This document shows, piece after piece, positions 1,553-18,181 of a DNA stretch of 47,721 bases (position 1 is its first letter; every line of letters begins with the position of its first letter). A program made the position numbers and the translations under genes. The stretch comes from a virus. Lineage: Duplodnaviria > Heunggongvirae > Uroviricota > Caudoviricetes. Under the pieces are notes generated by a model that worked only from the letters and a program-made list of their open reading frames with translations, did not search any database and was not told the origin of the DNA. The DNA is taken from the IMG/VR virus record IMGVR_UViG_2684622772_000013; one strand, 5' to 3'.

Positions 1553-1741
1553 TCACGAGGACTGAAGTTTCTCGCAATTAAAATTTATCAGTTTTACTTT
1601 CTGCTCTCTGGAAACGCCTGCTTCTTTTTTACCTGAGAGCATTTTTTCGCATTCTGATTTCGTTAGTTTAGATTTTGAATATCTTGTCCAGTTAGTAGGA
1701 GTGCCACCTTCCTTTTCAATAGTGGCGGTAATTTTATACAT
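1553..1741 (-). CDS. ydaC: Rac-type small protein YdaC
   Basis: Track ORF 1553..1813 trimmed to internal ATG MYKITATIEKEGG...; overlaps the ralR reading frame in the K-12-like arrangement. Confidence 0.6.
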   Translation of the reverse strand: MYKITATIEKEGGTPTNWTRYSKSKLTKSECEKMLSGKKEAGVSREQKVKLINFNCEKLQSS

Positions 1742-6008: not shown

Positions 6009-6229
6009 CACCATGACTCCGCCTTTACAGGTAAACCATCACGACCGAGGAAGACTTTAATCATGCGGTCAGTAATGCATGTTTTTGTGGTCAGGTTACG
6101 AATATATAGTTTTCGCTTTTTAATATTGTTTGCCGAGGCAATATATGTCCGGCCTTCATGAAGAACATAATCGCCAGGAGTCACACACTGACGTGGTATT
6201 TCATCAGTTCCGAAGTGATGTGCAATCAT
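6008..6229 (-). CDS. kilR: KilR, cell-division (FtsZ) inhibitor
   Basis: Track ORF trimmed to [46 protein letters not shown] (73 aa), matching recalled KilR. Confidence 0.88.
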
Positions 6230-6670
6230 AATTATCTCCATTTTTACAAATGAACTTTGTTGATGCGGTGCCTGGTGCCTCCAGGTGACTGCAACCAGTT
6301 AACAATTACAGTCGGCTTTCCCACCCAAACCAATAAGGACTAACATGACTTTTAACTGTGCCACGTGCGCTTAGCCGCATTCACCGCATCACAAAATTCA
6401 CTTTAAAAAGGGCGGACATCAGCCGAACTTCAAGAAAAAAACTGATGCCGCCAGGACTACACACAGCAATGTCGTTATTTACAACCGGAGGCGCACTCCC
6501 ACCATTTAAATTTAACAGACAAGACCGACTCTTTATGGATATCGGAAATGCGCCTTCGTGTTGTGCCCGGTTTTATTTCACCACCTCCGGGCTTCGGTGG
6601 TCTCGGCTATACCCCTACAGCGAGAGCTTGTGTTAACATTTCAATACCCTTACAGTTGAGAGTTATTGAT

Positions 6671-7159
6671 ATGTTGGATGTATTTACTCCATTGTTGAAA
6701 CTTTTTGCTAACGAGCCACTCGAAATACTTATGTATACGATTATCATTTTTGGTCTCACTCTCTGGCTGATACCGAAAGAGTTTACTGTCGCATTCAATG
6801 CTTATACTGAAATACCTTGGCTCTTTCAGATTATCGTTTTTGCCTTTTCTTTCGTGGTCGCCATTTCCTTCTCAAGATTGCGAGCACATATTCAAAAGCA
6901 TTATTCATTACTACCAGAGCAACGAGTATTGCTTCGTTTATCTGAGAAAGAAATCGCTGTATTTAAAGATTTCCTTAAAACAGGAAATCTTATTATCACT
7001 TCTCCTTGCCGTAACCCGGTTATGAAAAAATTAGAACGGAAGGGCATCATTCAACATCAGAGTGATAGCGCAAACTGTTCTTATTATCTCGTCACCGAAA
7101 AATACTCCCATTTTATGAAGTTATTCTGGAACAGCAGGAGTAGACGTTTTAATCGTTAG
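6671..7159 (+). CDS. sieB: Superinfection exclusion protein B
   Basis: Track ORF trimmed to ATG at 6671: MLDVFTPLLKLFANEPLE...FWNSRSRRFNR (162 aa), matching recalled SieB; hydrophobic N-terminal segment. Confidence 0.88.
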   Translation: MLDVFTPLLKLFANEPLEILMYTIIIFGLTLWLIPKEFTVAFNAYTEIPWLFQIIVFAFSFVVAISFSRLRAHIQKHYSLLPEQRVLLRLSEKEIAVFKDFLKTGNLIITSPCRNPVMKKLERKGIIQHQSDSANCSYYLVTEKYSHFMKLFWNSRSRRFNR

Positions 7160-7311
7160 CTTACTGTGTGCTTCTCCAACCATCGGCGCGCACCAGTTTC
7201 GGTTTTAAATGTTTTGCTTTTGGTATACGTCATGGCAGTGAACGTTCCATCCTGGTTGGGGAACACGCCGCACACCAGGGATTCGTTGTTGCCGAGGTCG
7301 ATTTTTTGCAT
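7156..7311 (-). CDS. ydaF: Small protein YdaF
   Basis: 51-aa minus-strand ORF below the track cutoff, translated by hand: MQKIDLGNNESLVCGVFPNQDGTFTAMTYTKSKTFKTETGARRWLEKHTVS; convergent 4-nt overlap with sieB stop. Confidence 0.7.
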   Translation of the reverse strand: MQKIDLGNNESLVCGVFPNQDGTFTAMTYTKSKTFKTETGARRWLEKHTVS

Positions 7312-7321
7312 TTTGCGAATC

Positions 7322-7456
7322 TCACATCTTGTTGCTGTGTATAGCGACTTCTGCCTGCCAGAGATCCCAGTCGTTGCTGCGTAAAGCCTGCACAGCCTGG
7401 TTGTAAGTGATACCGCAACAATCCATCAAATACTGAACTACTTCGTAATGCACCAT
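7322..7456 (-). CDS. ydaG: Small protein YdaG
   Basis: Track ORF 7322..7504 trimmed to MVHYEVVQYLMDCCGITYNQAVQALRSNDWDLWQAEVAIHSNKM (44 aa). Confidence 0.7.
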   Translation of the reverse strand: MVHYEVVQYLMDCCGITYNQAVQALRSNDWDLWQAEVAIHSNKM

Positions 7457-7620
7457 CTTATCTCTCCCCTTAACGCCGGGTGGCGGAACTGAAACCTGCT
7501 GCACTGCAAAATCTGAACCCTGCCGTCATGTTCATACGCCTCGGGCTGGCTACTTAACCCCTGACCACTGCCTGGTAACTCGAAGTATTGCCCTGCGTTC
7601 TGTGGGGCGGGGTGGGTTGG

Positions 7621-7680
7621 TAGGTATATAATGTACTTTGTGTTCATTGATGTAAAGTACTATAAGTACATTTTGTGTGT
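7621..7680. promoter_or_regulatory. Candidate leftward early promoter with operator-like ATGTACT / AGTACAT repeats
   Basis: Copies of ATGTACT (7631-7637) and its complement AGTACAT (7656-7661, 7664-7671) lie between the repressor 3' end and ydaG; the same motif recurs in the repressor/cro intergenic region. Confidence 0.4.
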
Positions 7681-7746
7681 AAAAAAATGAGATGGGATAA
7701 AGTGAAGCACAAACCCGGAGGGGGACGCTACCGGATTTATGCTGGT

Positions 7747-8184
7747 TTAAGAGGCTTTTTGTTTTTTCTTTCGTGCTAGCTCTTCGTAAATTGCATTGTA
7801 CTTCTGTTTTTTCTCCTCAAGAGTTTTTAAAAGTTCATCTGTCTCACTGTCAGGGAGCTCGTCCAGAAGGTCAATGATGATTTTTTGTCTTGGATTTAAC
7901 TCCTGATAGAAACGTACCTGTCCACTTTCTTCTGTATCCTCTCCCAAAAGATAGGTTGGTGTTGTTCCAATGAGTGTTGCTAATTCCCTTAATTTCTCTC
8001 GGCGAGGAATTGTTTCGCCATTAAACCATTTGCTAACCGCTTTTGGTGTTAATTTCATTCGACGGGCAATTTCTGCCTGCCTTCCATGTTGTTCATAACC
8101 AGCGTTTTCACAGGCTAGCGCAAGCCTACTGGCGAACTCTTTACGCGCTTTATCTTCATGAACCATAAGTTCAATGATATTCAC
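7747..8184 (-). CDS. Prophage repressor, XRE/cI-type HTH (RacR-equivalent position)
   Basis: HTH segment RQAEIARRMKLTPKAVSKWFNGETIP; divergent from a Cro-like gene. Track start is GTG at 8182-8184; an in-frame ATG lies 18 nt downstream, so the start is ambiguous. No C-terminal S24 peptidase motif seen. Confidence 0.7.
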   Translation of the reverse strand: MNIIELMVHEDKARKEFASRLALACENAGYEQHGRQAEIARRMKLTPKAVSKWFNGETIPRREKLRELATLIGTTPTYLLGEDTEESGQVRFYQELNPRQKIIIDLLDELPDSETDELLKTLEEKKQKYNAIYEELARKKKQKAS

Positions 8185-8245
8185 TCTTGAATGTACTGTC
8201 AGTTCTGTTATAGCATGTACTCAAAGTTCACATTGTGAGGGTGAT
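8185..8245. promoter_or_regulatory. Divergent repressor/cro promoter-operator region
   Basis: Two ATGTACT copies (8191-8197, 8215-8221) overlap a candidate rightward promoter (TTGAAT, ~17-nt spacer, TATAGC) upstream of the Cro-like gene. Confidence 0.45.
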
Positions 8246-8500
8246 ATGAACCAGAAAACACTTGAAGATGTAATCAAAACTGTTCGCGTTTCTGTTGTGG
8301 CCGACGTTTGTGGTGTCAGCCAAAGAGCAATCTACAAATGGATGGATAACGGAAAATTGCCTCGCACAGAATATACCGGCGAAACAAATTACGCTGAAAA
8401 AATCGCTCATGCATCAAACGGATTATTTTCTGCTGATGTAATTTTAACTATTGGCAGAAATAAAACTACTACGAAAAAGCTGATGGGAGTTGATTCATGA
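8246..8500 (+). CDS. Cro/YdaS-like HTH regulator
   Basis: 84 aa from ATG at 8246 (MNQKTLEDVIKTVRVSVVADVCGVSQRAIYKWMDNGKLPR); GAGGG ribosome-binding site upstream; divergent from the repressor. Confidence 0.75.
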   Translation: MNQKTLEDVIKTVRVSVVADVCGVSQRAIYKWMDNGKLPRTEYTGETNYAEKIAHASNGLFSADVILTIGRNKTTTKKLMGVDS

Positions 8501-8919
8501 AAATCAAGCATGAGCACATCGAGTCAGTGTTGTTAGCCCTGGCAGCCGAAAAAGGGCAGGCATGGGTAGCCAATGCCATTACTGAAGAATATCTGCGCCA
8601 GGGGGGCGGCGAATTGCCCCTGGTACCAGGCAAGGACTGGAATAATCAGCAGAATATCTATCACCGTTGGTTGAAAGGTGAAACGAAAACGCAAAGAGAA
8701 AAAATTCAGAAGCTGATCCCAGCAATTCTGGCAATCCTTCCGCGCGAGCTGCGTCACCGACTCTGCATCTTCGATACCCTGGAACGCCGTGCATTACTGG
8801 CGGCGCAGGAAGCGTTAAGTACGGCAATTGATGCGCATGATGATGCAGTCCAAGCCGTTTACCGGAAAGCGCATTTCAGCGGCGGCGGGTCTTCCGACGA
8901 TTCTGTCATTGTTCATTAA
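8497..8919 (+). CDS. ydaT: YdaT-like protein (toxin/cII-like regulator of the YdaS-YdaT pair)
   Basis: 140 aa, MKIKHEHIESVLLALAAEKGQAWVANAITEEYLRQ; start overlaps the Cro-like stop (ATGA); matches recalled Rac YdaT length and N-terminus. Confidence 0.65.
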   Translation: MKIKHEHIESVLLALAAEKGQAWVANAITEEYLRQGGGELPLVPGKDWNNQQNIYHRWLKGETKTQREKIQKLIPAILAILPRELRHRLCIFDTLERRALLAAQEALSTAIDAHDDAVQAVYRKAHFSGGGSSDDSVIVH

Positions 8920-11758: not shown

Positions 11759-11914
11759 ACGTTACTAGATCAAAGAGCATTAGTTCATATGTAAATTGAC
11801 ATTTTTCTGGCACAGGGGAGAGCTAGCGTGGTTGTCCGCTTTGTGCCAATAGCGGACATTGCTGGCTCATGGTATGTTAGTTTAAGGAGGCAGGTTATGC
11901 CCTGTATTTCGCTG

Positions 11915-11923
11915 TGGTATAAT
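11915..11923 (+). promoter_or_regulatory. Extended -10 promoter element (TGgTATAAT) upstream of the accessory cassette
   Basis: TG at 11915-11916 and TATAAT at 11918-11923, followed about 20 nt later by AAGGGAG and a GTG start at 11957. Confidence 0.45.
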
Positions 11924-11956
11924 AGTTGCGCAATTGATACAAGGGAGCGTTACATC

Positions 11957-12919
11957 GTGAAAATTGTTTTCGAGGTTAATGGAAAGAAAGTTCCACTAAA
12001 ATCTTTAAAATACATAAGCAAAAAAGATCAACTCGAAGTAATGAAAAACTGGTTCTTTGAAAACTTTGAAGATCCGGCAAATGCTTGTCCGTATGAAAGT
12101 AGAGAAGGTGGCTATGCTTACATATATGGCGGGCCGTATGATGCGAGCGAAGAACTACAATCCATCTTCGGTCAATATGTTAAATCTGAGTATATTGAGG
12201 AATTAGTAGATGAATTACAAACACAATGTTTTGACTGGTCTGGAAACTCAAATAATATAGATGATTGGTACGATGATGATATCTACGACGCTGTAACGTC
12301 TTCCGGTAATCCGTATTTAAAATTCATTGATAATATCGATAAAATAAAAAAACTTGCAAAAGATAAAACTGAACAACAGCAAAAAAACCACTTGCTTAGT
12401 TTGCTCTACACGAATGTTATTACAGCTTTGGAAACGCTTTATGTTGAGCTATTCATTAATTCTATAGAGAAAGATGATGTCTACATAGCCAATTGTATAG
12501 AAAAAGGTAAGACTGAATTTAAAGTAAGCAAAGATATTGCTGCGTTGCCTTTCAAGGGTGAACCCATCGAGAAAATTAGGGGAGAGCTAATCAGGTCAAT
12601 CAAGGAACACTTGATCAGTGCAAGCTGGCATAGCACTAAAAAGGTAATCGACCGCTATGAAGCTACATTCGATATAAAAGTACAAAAAGACTGTCCGATA
12701 GAAGCTATTGAATTGGCAACCCTCAATCGAAATCACTTAGTGCATCGTGGTGGAAAGGATAAAGAAGGGAACCTCGTAGTGATTACAGACCAGGATCTTG
12801 AAACGCTGATTGAAAATGCATCGAACCTGGCAATTATGCTCTACAACAGTTTAAATGTAGCAACGAATAAAACCACCATTTTGCAACCAGATGACAAACC
12901 GTTCATTCATGAATTTTAA
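11957..12919 (+). CDS. Accessory protein A with HEPN-like R-x4-H motif; candidate abortive-infection/RNase effector
   Basis: AT-rich ORF; proposed GTG start at 11957 (AAGGGAG 9 nt upstream), alternatives ATG 11897 or the track start 11828; C-terminal motif ELATLNRNHLVHRGG fits HEPN R-[N]-x3-H; no other family recognised. Confidence 0.55.
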   Translation: MKIVFEVNGKKVPLKSLKYISKKDQLEVMKNWFFENFEDPANACPYESREGGYAYIYGGPYDASEELQSIFGQYVKSEYIEELVDELQTQCFDWSGNSNNIDDWYDDDIYDAVTSSGNPYLKFIDNIDKIKKLAKDKTEQQQKNHLLSLLYTNVITALETLYVELFINSIEKDDVYIANCIEKGKTEFKVSKDIAALPFKGEPIEKIRGELIRSIKEHLISASWHSTKKVIDRYEATFDIKVQKDCPIEAIELATLNRNHLVHRGGKDKEGNLVVITDQDLETLIENASNLAIMLYNSLNVATNKTTILQPDDKPFIHEF

Positions 12920-12934
12920 TAGCGCAGGTCATAC

Positions 12935-13936
12935 ATGGATATTCGCACACGAAAGACAAAATTTTTAGAGTCGTTAGATTCAACTGAAGTGATACGCAAA
13001 GCAGTAAGTCTCGCTATAGATTGCATTATTGATAATCATAATAGTAATGAAGATACCCCCTTAGTTATTACCAGCTATGATGATCTCTGTAGAATCCAGG
13101 TGCTAAATTATGTACAGGAGTTTTGCGAAGCTGCATTCCCTGATATGGATGAATATTACTTTAGTCCTAACATACTTCGCATCAACGGCAAGACTAGTGA
13201 AGAAGCTTGTATTAACTTAATTAAACTCTTAAGAAGTACAAAAGGCATGCTATTCTGGTCCGATGCCCCATCGTGGTTCGCTAGCCTCCCCGACGGATTA
13301 TTCCATGTTGTTAACATTGATCAAAAAATCGTTACTCGCGGCCTTAATAAGAAAAACTCTAAGCCGACAATAATCAATAAAGATTACAGTGTAGATACAC
13401 TACTATCAGAGCTATTTTTGAATGGCGCACACATGGAGCAACCCAACGTACACAACGTTTCTGAGGGAAACATGAAGTTCTATGATGAATGCCATGCTGG
13501 ATTAATCAGACCAATACCCGCTCCAATAGGCGCGTCATACGATGAAGAGATCACAATTAATTCTCCAGATTGGCAAAAGCTCGCGTGTGTAGCTTTACGC
13601 CGCTATCAGTCGAAGGAATGTCATGACGGAATGCAATGGGATACAACCGATCATGGTTGGACTGATGTAATCGCGTATCCATTCGTCGAAGAAATACAAT
13701 CAATGGATAATAGTGGTTATCGACAATGTTTAGTTGGGCTGGTCACAATAAACAATTCAAATGCAAATTCTCCGTACCTATCTACCGTTTGGATACATCC
13801 ATTTTATCGCAGGAGAGGGTTATTAAGTAAGTTATGGCCAAAATTACAAGAGTTATATGGAAGTAACTTCGAAATTGAGCGACCTAATGAAAATATGAAA
13901 GCATTTCTGAAAAGTGCGAAACACGCAGATTACTAA
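12935..13936 (+). CDS. Accessory protein B with GNAT-like C-terminal region; candidate acetyltransferase partner
   Basis: 333 aa, AT-rich, 15 nt after gene A; C-terminal segment CLVGLVTINN...VWIHPFYRRRGLLSKLWPKL resembles GNAT motif A; N-terminal ~190 aa unrecognised. Confidence 0.55.
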   Translation: MDIRTRKTKFLESLDSTEVIRKAVSLAIDCIIDNHNSNEDTPLVITSYDDLCRIQVLNYVQEFCEAAFPDMDEYYFSPNILRINGKTSEEACINLIKLLRSTKGMLFWSDAPSWFASLPDGLFHVVNIDQKIVTRGLNKKNSKPTIINKDYSVDTLLSELFLNGAHMEQPNVHNVSEGNMKFYDECHAGLIRPIPAPIGASYDEEITINSPDWQKLACVALRRYQSKECHDGMQWDTTDHGWTDVIAYPFVEEIQSMDNSGYRQCLVGLVTINNSNANSPYLSTVWIHPFYRRRGLLSKLWPKLQELYGSNFEIERPNENMKAFLKSAKHADY

Positions 13937-14113
13937 TTTATGAATCAGTCTGTGGAGTTAGGGTTGGTGTGAACAAGTAGGGTAAGAGCCTCAACGTGAT
14001 GCTATGCCGACCTGCTCCCTGAGAATTCACACAGAAGGCTGCTAGCAATGTCTGCAGATCGCTCAAAGCGGACTAAAATGTTGGCTTGTTTCTGACTTAG
14101 AGCATTTAAGGAA

Positions 14114-14556: not shown

Positions 14557-14895
14557 CTATTTTTTGGTGCTATAGACTTTTTCGCCCGAAAAGTCTGGAG
14601 CGACCCAAAAGTTAATATTAAACTGAGCATCATCGCTTAGTTCAACACGGTGCCAGTATTGTGGTGGGCTTGTTGCAAAAGCGCCAGCATTAATGACTAC
14701 TTTTATCTCCGGTTCAGTAGCATTCTCATCAGTAAAACCATAATATGTTACAGTGCCTTCCATTACGCACAACTGCCCAAAAACACCTGCTGCTGTATTA
14801 TGATGTGTTAATAACGCTGAAGGTACGTTCTCTTTTGTGAAGAACGGAGTTGAGCGTTTGATTACCCAATCTTTAGGAATTCTCTTGTGTGTCAT
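14557..14895 (-). CDS. DUF1971 (YeaR-like) protein
   Basis: Track ORF trimmed to ATG with GGAGG ribosome-binding site (MTHKRIPKDWVIKRSTPFFTKENVPSALLTHHN...); resembles recalled E. coli YeaR. Confidence 0.65.
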   Translation of the reverse strand: MTHKRIPKDWVIKRSTPFFTKENVPSALLTHHNTAAGVFGQLCVMEGTVTYYGFTDENATEPEIKVVINAGAFATSPPQYWHRVELSDDAQFNINFWVAPDFSGEKVYSTKK

Positions 14896-15708
14896 AACCA
14901 CCTCCTCCAAAACATGCATTAAAAATGCATCTTTTGGAGGGTTATGTCAAGCTGTTATGAAACACATAATTGATATGTTGATTAGAGGAGAAGATAGAAT
15001 AAATATGGTTGTTTTTCGTATAACTATTTGTTTTACTTTTAGTTTATGCATTCTGTGTGTTAGGAATAAGTTATTAAAGTTTAATCAAAAAATCTCGATG
15101 TAGTCCACATAGATTACTGTTACTGAACCTTATTGTGTGTATTAGTTGTGTTCTGAAATTTCAGCTTAATTATTTATGATGTATTTTTTAACGATAAATA
15201 TTTTCCCAGGATACCTTTACTGTGTATATAAATAAATTATATACGCATAAATAATGTAAAGGCGTCCTTTTAGATATATCTTATCAAATGTTAATGACTT
15301 GAGTGGGAAATATGATTCCAGCAACTTATCATGTGGCTACTTTATAAAAATAATGCCCATATAAAACAACAAGCGAAAAGGATTACGGATAAAAAAGGAG
15401 CGAGATGTGCGAACTTGTTATTTTCCATGTTTAACCACCTTAAATAATTGATGATGACGGGATGATTGCATCTGTAATGCTTTTATTGAAATGTTATGAT
15501 AAAAAAGAACTTTTGCATAACATTAAAATGTAATTTATCTAATCGTTTTTAATAATAAGTGTCGTATTTCTATCCTTGTACCAGCTATTTGATATGTAGT
15601 GTTTGTTCATGCTATGTGGGGCTTTACACCATAGCCAGTTTATTTATACTTTATTCGTCAGCCTGAACAACTGGCATCTGCTGCGCTGCGCCATCGAGAG
15701 ATTGAGAA

Positions 15709-17245: not shown

Positions 17246-18181
17246 CGTCAGGAAAGCAGGGGAGAATGCTGCTAGTTGGGCAACTGGTCTTTCTGCTCCA
17301 AATTATAACAGAGACCAGTTATAGTTTCGGTGCTGTGTTTTTTTTACAATATTGTGATAACACATTGCTGGCGGGAGTTTTGATATTTCTTGGCAGGGGC
17401 TGATGATGCGTTATCCTGATGTCGTCAACTCATATAAAATGAGATGAGAGATCATTGCAGGGTGGTTTGTAATTCGCTGTTTAGCGGGACAATATGTTGT
17501 CTGATACAAGACACCCGACGCCTCAGATTACTATAATAAAGACGAAGCATCCTTTGTATTGACCAACCGCCTGTTTAGGCGGTTCTTTTTGGGCTGGTTT
17601 ATTGTATGCCAAATGATTATTAAAAAGGTTGTGTTAATAACAAGATCCGAAATAATATGCCTGCATATTTTTATCTTGCTTATATTCTGCATATTGTGCA
17701 TAGCAGGCTCATCCCTGCAATCAAAACTGTATGATGAGTATTTTTTGTTTTCCTTTTTTCCAGTCATCTGATGATGACCTGCTTCTTTTTAATCCGGATC
17801 GACATCAGTTTTTTAAGATAATTCCTGCGAGTTATATGCATAAATGCCACAAACTCCGCATTTTATGTGGTTGGGAGTTGCCGGGCGCGCAGTGAGTTTG
17901 CTAAGAAAACTCCTGCATGGTGAATCCCCCTGTGCGGTGGGGTGATACCATTAACCTTTTCTGTCGCCGACAGGTATCACGAACATTTTGTTCACCGGGA
18001 GGCACCCGGCACCATGCACTTCAATAGATTCTCTCCACATTATGGATATTCTTTCAGAATATCCCACGCAGACTTTGTGTAAATGTTAACAAATGTGCGT
18101 TTTATTTGATCTGATTCGCTGTTTGAGCGTCCAAAACAACGGTATATATAATCCTTTACTATATGACATATGTGAGGAAAA

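What the first reader, a model, noticed from the sequence alone, without database searches (positions are those of the whole stretch)
11760..13936. AT-rich two-gene cassette with its own promoter: candidate undescribed defence or toxin module
Two tightly linked genes (11957..12919 and 12935..13936) are much more AT-rich than the flanking phage genes, sit between the replication module and the nin-like region, and are preceded by an extended -10 element (TGgTATAAT, 11915-11923) and a ribosome-binding site. Protein A has a C-terminal NRNHLVH motif fitting HEPN R-x4-H; protein B has a GNAT-like C-terminal segment (IHPFYRRRGLLSKLWPKL). I do not recognise this pairing as a known system. Variable cargo at this position in lambdoid prophages often encodes anti-phage functions.
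Basis: partly seen in the sequence, partly recalled or inferred. Interest (0 to 1): 0.88.

Follow-up and report, generated by a model that had tools for sequence, protein, structure and literature searches.

The report
Known phage-defence cassette DS-33 (HEPN plus acetyltransferase)
The two genes are real and do protect E. coli from phages, but this exact cassette was published in 2026 as defence system DS-33, where the first gene (a HEPN-fold, predicted RNA-cutting protein) proved sufficient and the second (an acetyltransferase) dispensable.

Summary
In detail: two AT-rich genes lie at the stated coordinates, behind a conserved extended -10 promoter, in a variable slot of a Rac-like lambdoid prophage.

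Gene A is 100% identical to DS-33A, and gene B differs by one residue from DS-33B (DeWeirdt et al., Science 2026, PMC13092281). That study cloned the cassette with its predicted native promoter. It gave 2-6 logs of protection against T7, T3, Bas67 and Bas26. Deleting A, or mutating R258 of its R-x4-H motif, abolished defence. Deleting B did not.

My analyses agree:
- A is a HEPN/RES-NTD1 domain joined to a HEPN fold, and it usually occurs alone.
- B is a rare family with a unique N-terminal domain joined to a GNAT fold. It is co-inherited with A in Enterobacterales and Aeromonas, but it also survives intact after A is deleted.

So this is a known defence system driven by one gene, not an undescribed two-component one.

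Still open:
- the trigger and the RNA target;
- B's role; the published B allele carries L289 where every other sequence has P;
- 24-nt hairpin repeats that bound this cassette and about 15 other cargoes at the same hotspot, several of them defence genes. I found no description of these repeats.

The parts
11834..11863 (+). Left boundary repeat of the cassette: GTCCGCTTTGTGCCAATAGCGGAC, a hairpin with a 9-position stem (8 pairs here) and loop GTGCCA, followed by ATTGCT.
   Evidence: It is the inverted partner of 14044-14073 (0 chance matches expected). Sequence in unrelated contexts diverges exactly outside GTCCGC. DNA fold energy is -9.3 kcal/mol, z = -3.5.
11870..11883 (+). Upstream copy of the motif TGGTATnnTAGTT (TGGTATGTTAGTTT). 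It may be an older -10-like element.
   Evidence: It is conserved in A+B cassettes, and a related form is present upstream of solo-A genes in Yersinia, Dickeya and E. coli. Function is inferred only.
11915..11923 (+). Extended -10 promoter element, TGgTATAAT.
   Evidence: The sequence is read directly. TGn+TAnAAT is kept in all 19 cassette variants. [quoted passage not shown] It has no -35 hexamer, so the consensus scan missed it.
11942..11948 (+). Ribosome-binding site AGGGAG of gene A.
   Evidence: The sequence is read directly. CAAGGAG/CAAGGGAG is conserved in paired and solo A loci.
11957..12919 (+). Gene A, identical to DS-33A (WP_014639476.1), 320 aa. It has an N-terminal HEPN/RES-NTD1 domain (about residues 20-100) and a C-terminal HEPN domain carrying R258-x4-H263.
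12935..13936 (+). Gene B, DS-33B-like (WP_000354966.1), 333 aa. It has an N-terminal alpha/beta domain unique to this family and a C-terminal GNAT acetyltransferase fold (about residues 175-330).
   Evidence: Foldseek gives probability 0.99-1.0 to many GNAT, HAT1 and MYST structures. PF00583 scores 19.9 bits against a cut-off of 20.7 and matches 16 of 43 members. The N-terminal domain finds only 20 proteins among 1.84 billion representatives; all are about 330-aa proteins or short, presumably truncated, ones. dN/dS is 0.25-0.43. Published deletion of B keeps defence.
13799..13801 (+). Codon for P289 of B. The experimentally tested DS-33B allele has L here.
   Evidence: This is the only difference from the published sequence. 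P289 is invariant in 43 homologues and in 70 of 70 loci held here.
13937..14043 (+). Conserved 3' untranslated stretch that travels with gene B.
   Evidence: It aligns across A+B cassettes and solo-B cassettes down to about 80% B identity. Its function was not examined.
14044..14073 (-). Right boundary repeat. The minus strand reads GTCCGCTTTGAGCGATCTGCAGACATTGCT.
   Evidence: It is the inverted partner of 11834-11863. Flanks diverge right after GCGGAC. In this window the stem is degenerate and the fold is weak, -5.3 kcal/mol, z = -0.7. Other cassettes have a clean 9-bp stem.

Best explanation
**What it is.** The cassette is anti-phage defence system DS-33, carried as mobile cargo in a Rac-like lambdoid prophage and transcribed from its own extended -10 promoter.

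**Protein A does the defending.**
- Its N-terminal HEPN/RES-NTD1 domain is the presumed sensor or regulatory part.
- Its C-terminal HEPN domain, with R258-x4-H263, is the effector.
- Infection by T7-like and some T5-like phages is thought to switch on the HEPN ribonuclease.
- The nuclease is presumed to cut RNA and stop phage production, probably by aborting the infected cell.

**Protein B is an accessory.**
- It is a GNAT-fold acetyltransferase with a family-specific N-terminal domain.
- It is co-transcribed and co-inherited with A, but A's defence does not need it.
- It appears to have a selected function of its own.

**Shown, by published experiments.**
- The defence phenotype.
- The need for gene A and for R258.
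- The dispensability of B.

**Shown here.**
- Sequence identity to DS-33.
- The folds and the conserved residues.
- The conserved promoter.
- Separability of A and B, and purifying selection on both.

**Inferred only.**
- RNase activity and the RNA target.
- A sensor role for NTD1.
- An abortive-infection outcome.
- Any role for B.
For: **Identity with DS-33.** A is 320/320 identical and B 332/333 identical to the sequences in Table S8. The coding span is the same 1980 bp as in Table S6.

**Published plating data**, as -log10 efficiency of plating for T7 / T3 / Bas67 / Bas26 in two replicates:

| Construct | Replicate 1 | Replicate 2 |
|---|---|---|
| Wild type | 3.8 / 3.3 / 4.0 / 5.0 | 2.6 / 2.4 / 2.0 / 5.9 |
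| Delta-HEPN | 0.1 / -0.5 / 0 / 0.5 | -0.3 / 0 / -0.2 / 0.3 |
| R258A | 0.8 / -0.3 / 0.5 / 0.7 | 0.5 / 0.3 / 0 / 0.4 |
| Delta-GNAT | 4.8 / 3.3 / 4.0 / 5.0 | 4.3 / 3.3 / 3.3 / 4.9 |

The first screen gave the same phage range. The clone used the predicted native promoter on a low-copy plasmid.

**Fold and motifs of A.**
- R258, H263 and R264 are invariant.
- PF18870 and PF18735 match across the family.

**Modular N-terminal domain.**
- Here it is also joined to PIN_8, and possibly to S1 plus RNase E/G in one stop-to-stop reading frame that may be a read-through.
- Anantharaman et al. 2013 report it joined to RES and to an ABC ATPase.

**A works alone in nature.**
- No B lies near A in 78 of 80 genome loci.
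- Solo A sits in a P4-like island in E. coli and next to a ParE-family toxin gene and an HTH gene in Dickeya.

**B.**
- GNAT fold.
- Co-divergence with A: r = 0.98 over 23 pairs, with a 15-nt spacer in 22 of them.
- dN/dS 0.25-0.43, the same in lineages that deleted A.

**Cargo status.**
- GC 0.36-0.39 against 0.49-0.50 in the flanks.
- The intact cassette occurs in different prophages and in an Aeromonas mobilisable island.
Against: - No RNA cleavage, target, trigger or abortive-infection test is reported for DS-33 in the text I could read, and none can be run here.
- The window's A protein itself scores below Pfam's cut-off for PF18870 (22.2 against 27.4 bits) and does not hit PF18735 directly.
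- PADLOC models gave no hit, including those for PD-T4-2, assuming the library holds them.
- Foldseek against the PDB found nothing for A.
- 'B is dispensable' rests on an allele with L at the otherwise invariant P289, and on the five phages used in the mutant assays. B may matter for other phages or in the lysogen.
- Delta-GNAT defended somewhat better than wild type against T7 (by 1.0 and 1.7 logs), and in one of the two replicates against T3 and Bas67. This could mean B modulates A rather than being independent.
- The tight 15-nt spacing and strict co-inheritance also argue for some functional link.
Confidence: 0.75

Rival explanations
1. B regulates A. The acetyltransferase damps or gates the HEPN nuclease, for example by acetylating A, its trigger or its RNA substrate. 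This would limit self-damage or spare the element that carries the cassette.
For: - Delta-GNAT defends as well as or better than wild type: T7 by +1.0 and +1.7 logs, T5 by +1.0 and +0.5, and Bas67 and T3 by +1.3 and +0.9 in one of the two replicates.
- The 15-nt spacing and r = 0.98 co-divergence point to a functional link.
- B family members of 73% identity or more are nearly always found with A, or derive from an A+B cassette.
Against: - The effect is small, comes from two replicates, and could reflect mRNA or polarity changes in the deletion construct.
- For Bas26 the difference goes the other way in one replicate.
- A homologues live without B in most genomes.
- B stays intact and under the same purifying selection after A is deleted, and is solo in marine Gammaproteobacteria.
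- A+B also occurs outside prophages, so protection of the carrying phage is not a general explanation.
Confidence: 0.13
2. This is an obligate two-component HEPN+GNAT defence system in which both enzymes are needed.
For: - The two genes form a tight operon and are co-inherited across genera.
- Both are under purifying selection.
- The tested B allele carries L at the invariant P289, so the published wild type may already have lacked B function.
Against: - Delta-GNAT keeps full defence against all five phages tested.
- A is solo in 78 of 80 genome loci.
- B is solo in distant lineages.
- DefensePredictor itself scored B low, at log-odds 1.08 against 9.45 for A.
Confidence: 0.05
3. This is a toxin-antitoxin module: a HEPN toxin neutralised by the GNAT protein, or a GNAT toxin neutralised by the HEPN protein.
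Against: - Each single-gene deletion strain was viable and could be assayed.
- Each gene occurs alone in many genomes.
- There is no small DNA-binding antitoxin and no MNT nucleotidyltransferase partner.
- B is 333 aa with an extra domain, unlike the roughly 160-175-aa GNAT toxins (size from memory).
Confidence: 0.03
4. These are two unrelated cargo genes that merely sit side by side. B has no role in phage defence at all and serves, for example, host metabolism or resistance.
For: - B alone (the Delta-HEPN construct) gave no protection against five phages.
- B has no hit in PADLOC.
- The B family is small and mostly marine, and its neighbours there were not characterised.
Against: - Both genes share one promoter and one pair of boundary repeats, and they diverge in step.
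- B's neighbours in Enterobacterales include restriction-type nuclease (McrA-like HNH, Mrr), Fic, SymE and ParE-family toxin genes.
- The same hotspot holds known defence genes in other prophages.
Confidence: 0.04

Closest known systems
DS-33 (working name 'GNAT'), DeWeirdt et al., DefensePredictor, Science 2026, PMC13092281
   Same: It is the same system. A is 100% identical (WP_014639476.1), B is 332/333 identical, and gene order, spacing and the 1980-bp coding span match. It was experimentally validated against T7, T3, Bas67 and Bas26, with a weak effect on T5.
   Different: The window's B has P289, the family consensus, where the tested allele (WP_000354965.1) has L. The paper gives no mechanism for DS-33 in its main text; searches for 'DS-33' and 'GNAT' there returned nothing. 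In the text and tables I searched, it does not mention the boundary repeats or the separability of A and B.
PD-T4-2 (Vassallo et al. 2022), component PD-T4-2_B, a RiboL-PSP-HEPN protein
   Same: It was the best remote hit for A in the authors' HHblits table: probability 96.1 over 55% of A, which is the HEPN half. Both are E. coli defence systems. PD-T4-2 was confirmed by deletion in its native strain.
   Different: The relation is remote only. No PADLOC model reached E <= 1 on A. No shared N-terminal domain was detected. PD-T4-2 was isolated on T4, whereas DS-33 shows no T4 effect in the tables I read. I could not read the partner gene of PD-T4-2 here.
Single-protein HEPN abortive-infection proteins: AbiD/AbiF/AbiJ/AbiV, HepS of Gifsy-1, and Tha of S. 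aureus prophages
   Different: The N-terminal domain (HEPN/RES-NTD1) and the HEPN subfamily are different. HepS and Tha are activated by phage tail proteins (PMC13043305, PMC11087260), while DS-33's trigger is unknown. RNA targets are unknown for DS-33.
HEPN-MNT and GNAT-type (TacT/AtaT) toxin-antitoxin systems
   Different: There is no MNT or RHH partner. Each gene tolerates loss of the other. B carries an extra 170-aa domain.
Integron gene cassettes (attC-bounded) and REP/BIME-type palindromes, as comparators for the boundary hairpins
   Same: Short conserved palindromes bound single promoter-plus-gene units. These units occur in tandem arrays and carry defence genes.
   Different: The hairpins are 24 nt, whereas attC sites are about 57-141 nt with R''/L''/L'/R' cores. 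The two ends are inverted rather than direct. No integron integrase was noticed in the annotated loci, and no GTTRRRY core sits at the junction. The sequence is unlike E. coli REP. No target-site duplication was seen. The attC and REP features come from established knowledge and were not modelled here.

Membership tests
DS-33 (DeWeirdt et al. 2026) | Component A matches WP_014639476.1. | tested here: met
   320/320 identical to the sequence printed in Table S8. RefSeq annotates the same accession on identical DNA.
DS-33 (DeWeirdt et al. 2026) | Component B matches WP_000354965.1, lies directly downstream, and the coding span is the same. | tested here: met
   332/333 identical, with P289 here against L289. 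The gap is 15 nt. The span 11957-13936 is 1980 bp, the same as 6922-8901 in Table S6.
DS-33 (DeWeirdt et al. 2026) | Protects E. coli against phage when expressed from its own promoter. | not testable with these tools
   This is published for the near-identical clone. The promoter region of the window is the conserved one.
HEPN superfamily (RiboL-PSP-HEPN, PF18735) | A conserved R-x4-H motif, usually R-x4-6-H. | tested here: met
   R258-N-H-L-V-H263. R258, H263 and R264 are invariant in 51 sequences.
HEPN superfamily (RiboL-PSP-HEPN, PF18735) | The all-alpha HEPN fold. | tested here: met
HEPN superfamily (RiboL-PSP-HEPN, PF18735) | A match to the Pfam profile PF18735. | tested here: inconclusive
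   The window protein has no hit at E <= 1. 25 of 51 aligned homologues match, with best E 7e-11.
HEPN superfamily (RiboL-PSP-HEPN, PF18735) | Metal-independent RNase activity. | not testable with these tools
   There is only indirect support: R258A abolishes defence.
HEPN/RES-NTD1 (PF18870) | An N-terminal domain of about 100 aa that matches the profile. | tested here: inconclusive
   The window protein scores 22.2 bits against a cut-off of 27.4, E 2e-4, over residues 26-92. 49 of 51 homologues match at E <= 0.01. The core motif is WFxxNFEDPxxxxPYxxxEGGYxYIYGGPYDA.
GNAT acetyltransferases (PF00583) | The GNAT fold. | tested here: met
   The model has mean pLDDT 90. Foldseek gives probability 0.99-1.0 to many GNAT, MYST and HAT1 chains, aligning about 145-160 residues with TM about 0.5 on the target.
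GNAT acetyltransferases (PF00583) | A profile match above the curated cut-off. | tested here: inconclusive
   19.9 bits against a cut-off of 20.7. 16 of 43 homologues match at E <= 0.01.
GNAT acetyltransferases (PF00583) | Acetyl-CoA-binding motif A, Q/R-x-x-G-x-G/A. | tested here: inconclusive
   R292-R-R-G295-L-L. R292 is invariant and G295 common, but the last G/A is absent.
Type II toxin-antitoxin module | The two genes depend on each other: the toxin is lethal without its partner, and the genes are always linked. | tested here: not met
   A is without B in 78 of 80 loci. B is without A. Both single deletions are viable.
Integron cassette (for the boundary repeats) | An attC site with R''/L''/L'/R' cores in direct orientation, plus an IntI integrase. 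| tested here: not met
   The hairpins are 24 nt and in inverted orientation, and the junction flanks do not fit GTTRRRY. No integron integrase was noticed among the annotated neighbours. No attC covariance model was available.

The most novel reading that the evidence does not exclude
**Reading.** DS-33 may be one member of a family of mobile gene cassettes, each bounded by a pair of inverted 24-nt hairpins.

**The elements.**
- The shared stem is GTCCGCTTT/AAAGCGGAC.
- The left loop is GTGCCA and the right loop is TCGCTC.
- The inner flanks follow ATTG...CAAT.

**Where the pair is found.**
- It flanks about 15 different cargoes at the DUF977-hokD hotspot of lambdoid prophages.
- Cargoes include PD-T7-1, AbiH, a ThsB-like TIR protein, PDC-S33 and PDC-S39.
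- It forms tandem arrays in other Enterobacterales contigs.
- It travels with its cargo into unrelated contexts, where the flanks diverge exactly at the hairpin edges.

**Why it would matter.** This would point to a dedicated, so far undescribed cassette-exchange mechanism that shuttles defence genes between mobile elements.

**A second open reading.** B is an active acetyltransferase whose role was masked because the tested allele carries L at the invariant P289.
Probability: 0.3. Interest if true: 0.7.

Novelty: already known. Interest (0 to 1): 0.3.

Why it matters
As a defence system the cassette is already on record, so the finding adds no new system.

It still matters in three smaller ways:
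- **Independent support.** Comparative data back the published genetics. The HEPN protein is a self-contained defence gene found across many phyla, and the GNAT gene is a separable accessory.
- **A caveat on the published result.** The B allele that was tested carries a substitution at a residue that is otherwise invariant, so 'GNAT not required' says little about what an intact B does. B is under purifying selection even after A is lost, so it has some function.
- **A possible route for cassette exchange.** The hairpin repeats that bound this cassette and many other defence cargoes bear on an open question stated in a 2026 NAR paper (PMC13586616): how do defence systems move between unrelated mobile elements, when transposons are rare in these hotspots and flanking homology is lacking?

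Tried and rejected
**Searches that gave nothing useful**
- PADLOC and NCBIfam gave no meaningful hit for either protein.
- PHROGs only returned two families of unknown function.
- Profile searches of PDB sequences found nothing for A or B.
- The phage GenBank collection holds no copy of the cassette, only the 100-bp backbone flank.
- The RefSeq accessions do not occur in any searchable main text. They appeared only in supplementary tables.
- The boundary-repeat sequences occur in no searchable paper, apart from unrelated primer matches.

**Ideas considered and dropped**
- *A+B pairing is specific to prophages and B protects the carrying phage.* Dropped as a general explanation, because Aeromonas carries A+B in a relaxase-bearing island.
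- *Solo B in Enterobacterales is an independent cassette.* Rejected. These copies keep the A promoter and the last roughly 70 nt of gene A, so they are deletion derivatives.
- *B is a decaying hitchhiker.* Rejected by dN/dS of 0.25-0.43.
- *The hairpins are intrinsic terminators.* No T-run follows on either strand.
- *The hairpins are IS200/IS605-type ends.* The two ends are true inverted repeats rather than same-strand hairpins.
- *Target-site duplications flank the repeats.* None seen in 68 boundary pairs.
- *An empty hotspot site exists.* None found. One scan of viral contigs gave 0 matches. Of 2478 E. coli genomes with the backbone flanks, only one had them close together, and that is a 271-bp remnant of another cassette.
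- *The N-terminal domain of B occurs in other architectures.* It does not. There were only 20 hits, all about 330-aa proteins or short, presumably truncated, ones.
Full report
**1. The observation**

Gene A runs 11957 (GTG) to 12919 (320 aa) and gene B runs 12935 to 13936 (333 aa), 15 nt apart.

- GC is 0.361 for A and 0.391 for B. The replication genes upstream are 0.498 and the DUF1367/DUF1364/DUF1133 genes downstream are 0.491.
- TGGTATAAT lies at 11915-11923, and AAGGGAG lies just before the GTG start.
- The consensus promoter scan did not report this site because it has no -35 hexamer.
- In an alignment of 19 different versions of the A+B cassette, TGn+TA(T/C/A)AAT is kept throughout while neighbouring bases change.

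**2. What the proteins are**

*Protein A.*
- It weakly matches Pfam HEPN/RES-NTD1 (PF18870, residues 26-92, 22.2 bits, below the cut-off).
- Across an alignment of 51 homologues reaching 26% identity, 49 match PF18870 and 25 match RiboL-PSP-HEPN (PF18735).
- Invariant residues include R258, H263 and R264 (the R-x4-H motif), plus E159, W224 and H225. The N-terminal domain carries a conserved core, WFxxNFEDP...EGGYxYIYGGPYDA.

*Protein B.*
- Its C-terminal half is a GNAT fold. Foldseek gives probability 0.99-1.0 to many acetyltransferases. PF00583 scores 19.9 bits against a 20.7 cut-off and matches 16 of 43 homologues.
- Its N-terminal 170 residues form a confident alpha/beta domain. That domain finds only 20 proteins among 1.84 billion representatives. 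All are about 330-aa proteins or short, presumably truncated, ones.

**3. It is already published**

The intact cassette occurs in 205 of 5426 complete E. coli genomes, annotated as two hypothetical proteins, WP_014639476.1 and WP_000354966.1.

WP_014639476.1 appears in the supplementary tables of DeWeirdt et al., 'DefensePredictor', Science 2026 (PMC13092281). Under the working name 'GNAT', this is DS-33: WP_014639476.1 plus WP_000354965.1, 1980 bp, flagged defensive.

The window's A is 320/320 identical to DS-33A. B is 332/333 identical, with P289 here against L289 in the tested clone.

Systems were cloned with their predicted native promoter on a low-copy plasmid in MG1655 and challenged with 24 phages.

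Table S7 gives these protection values, as -log10 efficiency of plating:

| Construct | T7 | T3 | Bas67 | Bas26 | T5 |
|---|---|---|---|---|---|
| Wild type, replicate 1 | 3.8 | 3.3 | 4.0 | 5.0 | 0.8 |
| Wild type, replicate 2 | 2.6 | 2.4 | 2.0 | 5.9 | 0.1 |
| Delta-GNAT, replicate 1 | 4.8 | 3.3 | 4.0 | 5.0 | 1.7 |
| Delta-GNAT, replicate 2 | 4.3 | 3.3 | 3.3 | 4.9 | 0.5 |

Delta-HEPN and R258A each gave between -0.5 and 0.8 on all five phages in both replicates. The first screen gave Bas26 4.7, T7 3.0, T3 3.5 and Bas67 2.3.

From memory of the BASEL collection, Bas67 is T7-like and Bas26 is T5-like.

No H263 or RRRG mutant appeared in the parts I read. The HEPN gene and its catalytic arginine are required, and the GNAT gene is not.

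The paper's main text does not discuss DS-33 beyond counting it among four HEPN-containing systems. Its HHblits table lists PD-T4-2_B, a RiboL-PSP-HEPN protein, as A's best remote hit (probability 96.1, 55% coverage) and gives nothing for B.

**4. Are A and B a system? Comparative evidence**

*A without B.*
- I fetched 80 genome loci that encode A homologues. 24 of them share only the N-terminal domain. Only two carry B, and one of those is probably E. coli DNA in a MAG.
- Relatives as close as 63-76% identity lack B, in Aeromonas taiwanensis, Yersinia alsatica, Pantoea and an unnamed Enterobacteriaceae isolate. A is often flanked by genes on the opposite strand.
- A 71%-identical E. coli paralogue sits alone in an island with an integrase, an AlpA-type regulator and a replication gene, resembling a P4-like satellite.
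- A Dickeya one sits alone beside a ParE-family toxin gene and an HTH gene.

*B without A.*
- B homologues of 56% identity or less, mostly marine Gammaproteobacteria, have no A in any locus that holds sequence upstream of B. Several are flanked by opposite-strand genes.
- A 62% Serratia B lies in a conjugative element.

*Where they are paired.*
- Both genes diverge in step: r = 0.98 over 23 distinct pairs, A 85-100% and B 78-100% identical. The spacer is 15 nt in 22 of 23 pairs.
- The pair also occurs outside prophages, in an Aeromonas island with a relaxase, next to SIR2 and cREC genes.

*Solo B in Enterobacterales.*
- These copies (86% identity; L102, L103, L124) keep the left boundary repeat and the last roughly 70 nt of gene A. 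L102 and L124 also keep the promoter.
- They are therefore A+B cassettes that lost A, through at least two independent deletions.
- B is intact in all of them.

*Selection.*
- dN/dS is 0.12-0.21 for A.
- It is 0.25-0.43 for B, and 0.26-0.41 in the lineages that lost A.

A is therefore a self-sufficient gene. B is a separable accessory with a selected function of its own.

**5. How it most likely works**

The N-terminal domain of A recurs with other effectors.
- Here it is joined to PIN_8, and possibly to S1 plus RNase E/G. The latter comes from a stop-to-stop reading frame that may be a read-through.
- Anantharaman et al. 2013 report it fused to RES toxin domains and to an ABC ATPase. They predicted that such NTD-HEPN fusions act like abortive-infection proteins: the N-terminal domain meets a phage component and the HEPN domain degrades RNA.

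Together with the R258A result, the best model is a single-protein sensor-effector. Infection by T7-like and some T5-like phages activates the HEPN RNase, presumably as a dimer as in other HEPN enzymes, which is established knowledge. RNA cleavage then stops phage production.

The phenotype, the need for A and R258, and the dispensability of B are shown by experiment. The RNase activity, the target, the trigger, the sensor role and the abortive outcome are all inferred.

**6. The role of B**

B is not an antitoxin, because strains lacking either gene were viable.

Delta-GNAT defended slightly better than wild type. The gain was 1.0 and 1.7 logs for T7, up to 1.3 for Bas67, up to 0.9 for T3, and 0.5-1.0 for T5. 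This is compatible with a mild damping role, but equally with an expression artefact.

One caveat has not been raised before, as far as I can see. The tested B allele has L at position 289, at the start of the helix that follows strand beta-4 in the model, in the WIHPFYRRxG segment. Every one of 43 aligned homologues and all 70 loci held here have P at this position. The published negative result may therefore describe an impaired B.

**7. Position and mobility (outside the original finding)**

*The repeats.*
- The cassette is bounded by an imperfect inverted repeat, 11834-11863 and 14044-14073. By the repeat finder it extends to 46 nt at 72% complementarity. A 30-nt pattern matches twice in the window, against 0 expected by chance.
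- Each arm is a hairpin with a 9-position stem, GTCCGCTTT/AAAGCGGAC. The left loop is GTGCCA and the right loop is TCGCTC. The inner flanks follow ATTG...CAAT.
- The left hairpin folds well (-9.3 kcal/mol, z = -3.5). The window's right one is degenerate.

*The same pair around other cargo.*
- It flanks other cargo at the same DUF977-hokD slot: a 444-aa gene in phage Tritos, two tandem cassettes in strain DJH_183sputum, a hypothetical gene plus AbiH, and a DUF4209 gene.
- Among 80 viral contigs with an exact left element, 61 have a right element within 9 kb. These delimit about 15 different cargoes of 0.5-3.7 kb, plus copies disrupted by insertion sequences.
- Five of ten cargo proteins tested match PADLOC models: a ThsB-like TIR protein, PDC-S33, PD-T7-1, PDC-S39 and AbiH.

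*Behaviour across contexts.*
- In 13 or more distinct non-lambdoid backbones, the flanking sequence diverges exactly at the outer edge of the hairpins. No target-site duplication is visible.
- Tandem arrays occur, with 14-18 nt between a right and the next left element.
- No empty site was found.
- The repeat sequence is absent from the searchable literature.
- A 2026 NAR paper on P2/P4 hotspots states that the route by which defence genes move between elements is unresolved.

I could not identify an enzyme or show movement. The repeats may be substrates of a dedicated recombination process. They may equally be short homologies used by phage recombinases.

**8. Verdict**

- The defence interpretation is right, but the system is already known and validated as DS-33.
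- It works through the HEPN protein alone rather than as a HEPN-GNAT pair.
- Novelty of the finding as given: already known.
- Still open: the trigger and RNA target of A, the function of an intact B, and the hairpin-bounded cassette architecture.

Noticed in passing
window 11834-11863 and 14044-14073; also L163, L171-L173, L102, L119, L123, L127, L159, L174-L253: The cassette is bounded by inverted 24-30-nt hairpin repeats with stem GTCCGCTTT/AAAGCGGAC and loops GTGCCA (left) and TCGCTC (right). The same pair bounds about 15 other cargoes at the DUF977-hokD prophage hotspot, including PD-T7-1, AbiH, a ThsB-like TIR protein, PDC-S33 and PDC-S39. It forms tandem arrays elsewhere, and flanks diverge exactly at the hairpin edges. 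No target-site duplication, empty site or literature match was found.
   Followed up: partly
window 13799-13801 (codon 289 of gene B): The published, experimentally tested DS-33B allele (WP_000354965.1) has L289. The window, 43 of 43 aligned homologues and 70 of 70 held loci all have P. The 'GNAT not required' result may therefore come from an impaired allele.
   Followed up: partly
L102 7817-8009, L103 6378-6511, L124 1424-1616 (compare window 11834-11965 and 12860-12939): Solo-B cassettes in Enterobacterales are A+B cassettes with gene A deleted. They keep the left hairpin and the last roughly 70 nt of A, and L102 and L124 also keep the promoter. At least two independent deletions occurred. 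B stays intact, with dN/dS 0.26-0.41.
   Followed up: yes
window 13937-14043: The 107-nt stretch after the stop codon of B is well conserved across A+B and solo-B cassettes down to about 80% B identity. Some variants carry a roughly 45-nt insertion. No terminator-like site was called there.
   Followed up: no
window 11870-11883 and 11915-11928: The motif TGGTATnnTAGTT occurs twice, 45 nt apart. The upstream copy has a counterpart before solo-A genes in Yersinia, Dickeya and E. coli. The downstream copy, the strong extended -10, was seen in all cassettes that carry B except one solo-B deletion derivative (L103).
   Followed up: partly
L155-L158 (E. coli), gene at 6001-6942 of L155: E. coli also carries a 71%-identical solo paralogue of A (P0017, 313 aa). 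It lies in an island with an integrase, an AlpA-type regulator and a replication gene, resembling a P4-like satellite, next to an unannotated 227-aa gene on the opposite strand.
   Followed up: partly
L164-L166 (Aeromonas caviae), about 6026-7993: Here the A+B pair lies in a relaxase-bearing island rather than a prophage, beside a SIR2-domain gene and a cREC_REC gene. These may form another defence system.
   Followed up: no
L071 7941-10043, L076 376-1623: The HEPN/RES-NTD1 domain is also found with other RNase-type domains. In L076 a PIN_8 domain precedes NTD1. In L071 NTD1 is followed by S1 and an RNase E/G segment; that reading is stop-to-stop and may be a read-through.
   Followed up: partly
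window 1557-1735 and 17885-18071: Rfam finds the RalA antitoxin sRNA of the RalR/RalA type I toxin-antitoxin pair and the sRNA STnc100. This fits a Rac-like prophage (compare).
   Followed up: no
window 14557-15708: Downstream of the cassette lie a reverse-strand DUF1971 gene (14557-14919) and a very AT-rich stretch (GC 0.27-0.31 at 14800-15600) holding only short unannotated ORFs (67-88 aa). No hokD was seen here, unlike the S88 and other prophages at the same slot.
   Followed up: no
NZ_CP073936.1 2539790-2544416 (hit H9): In E. coli strain MB56 the cassette matches in three pieces spread over 4.6 kb, with an IS3-family ISSen4 element inside. This is a natural disruption of DS-33.
   Followed up: no
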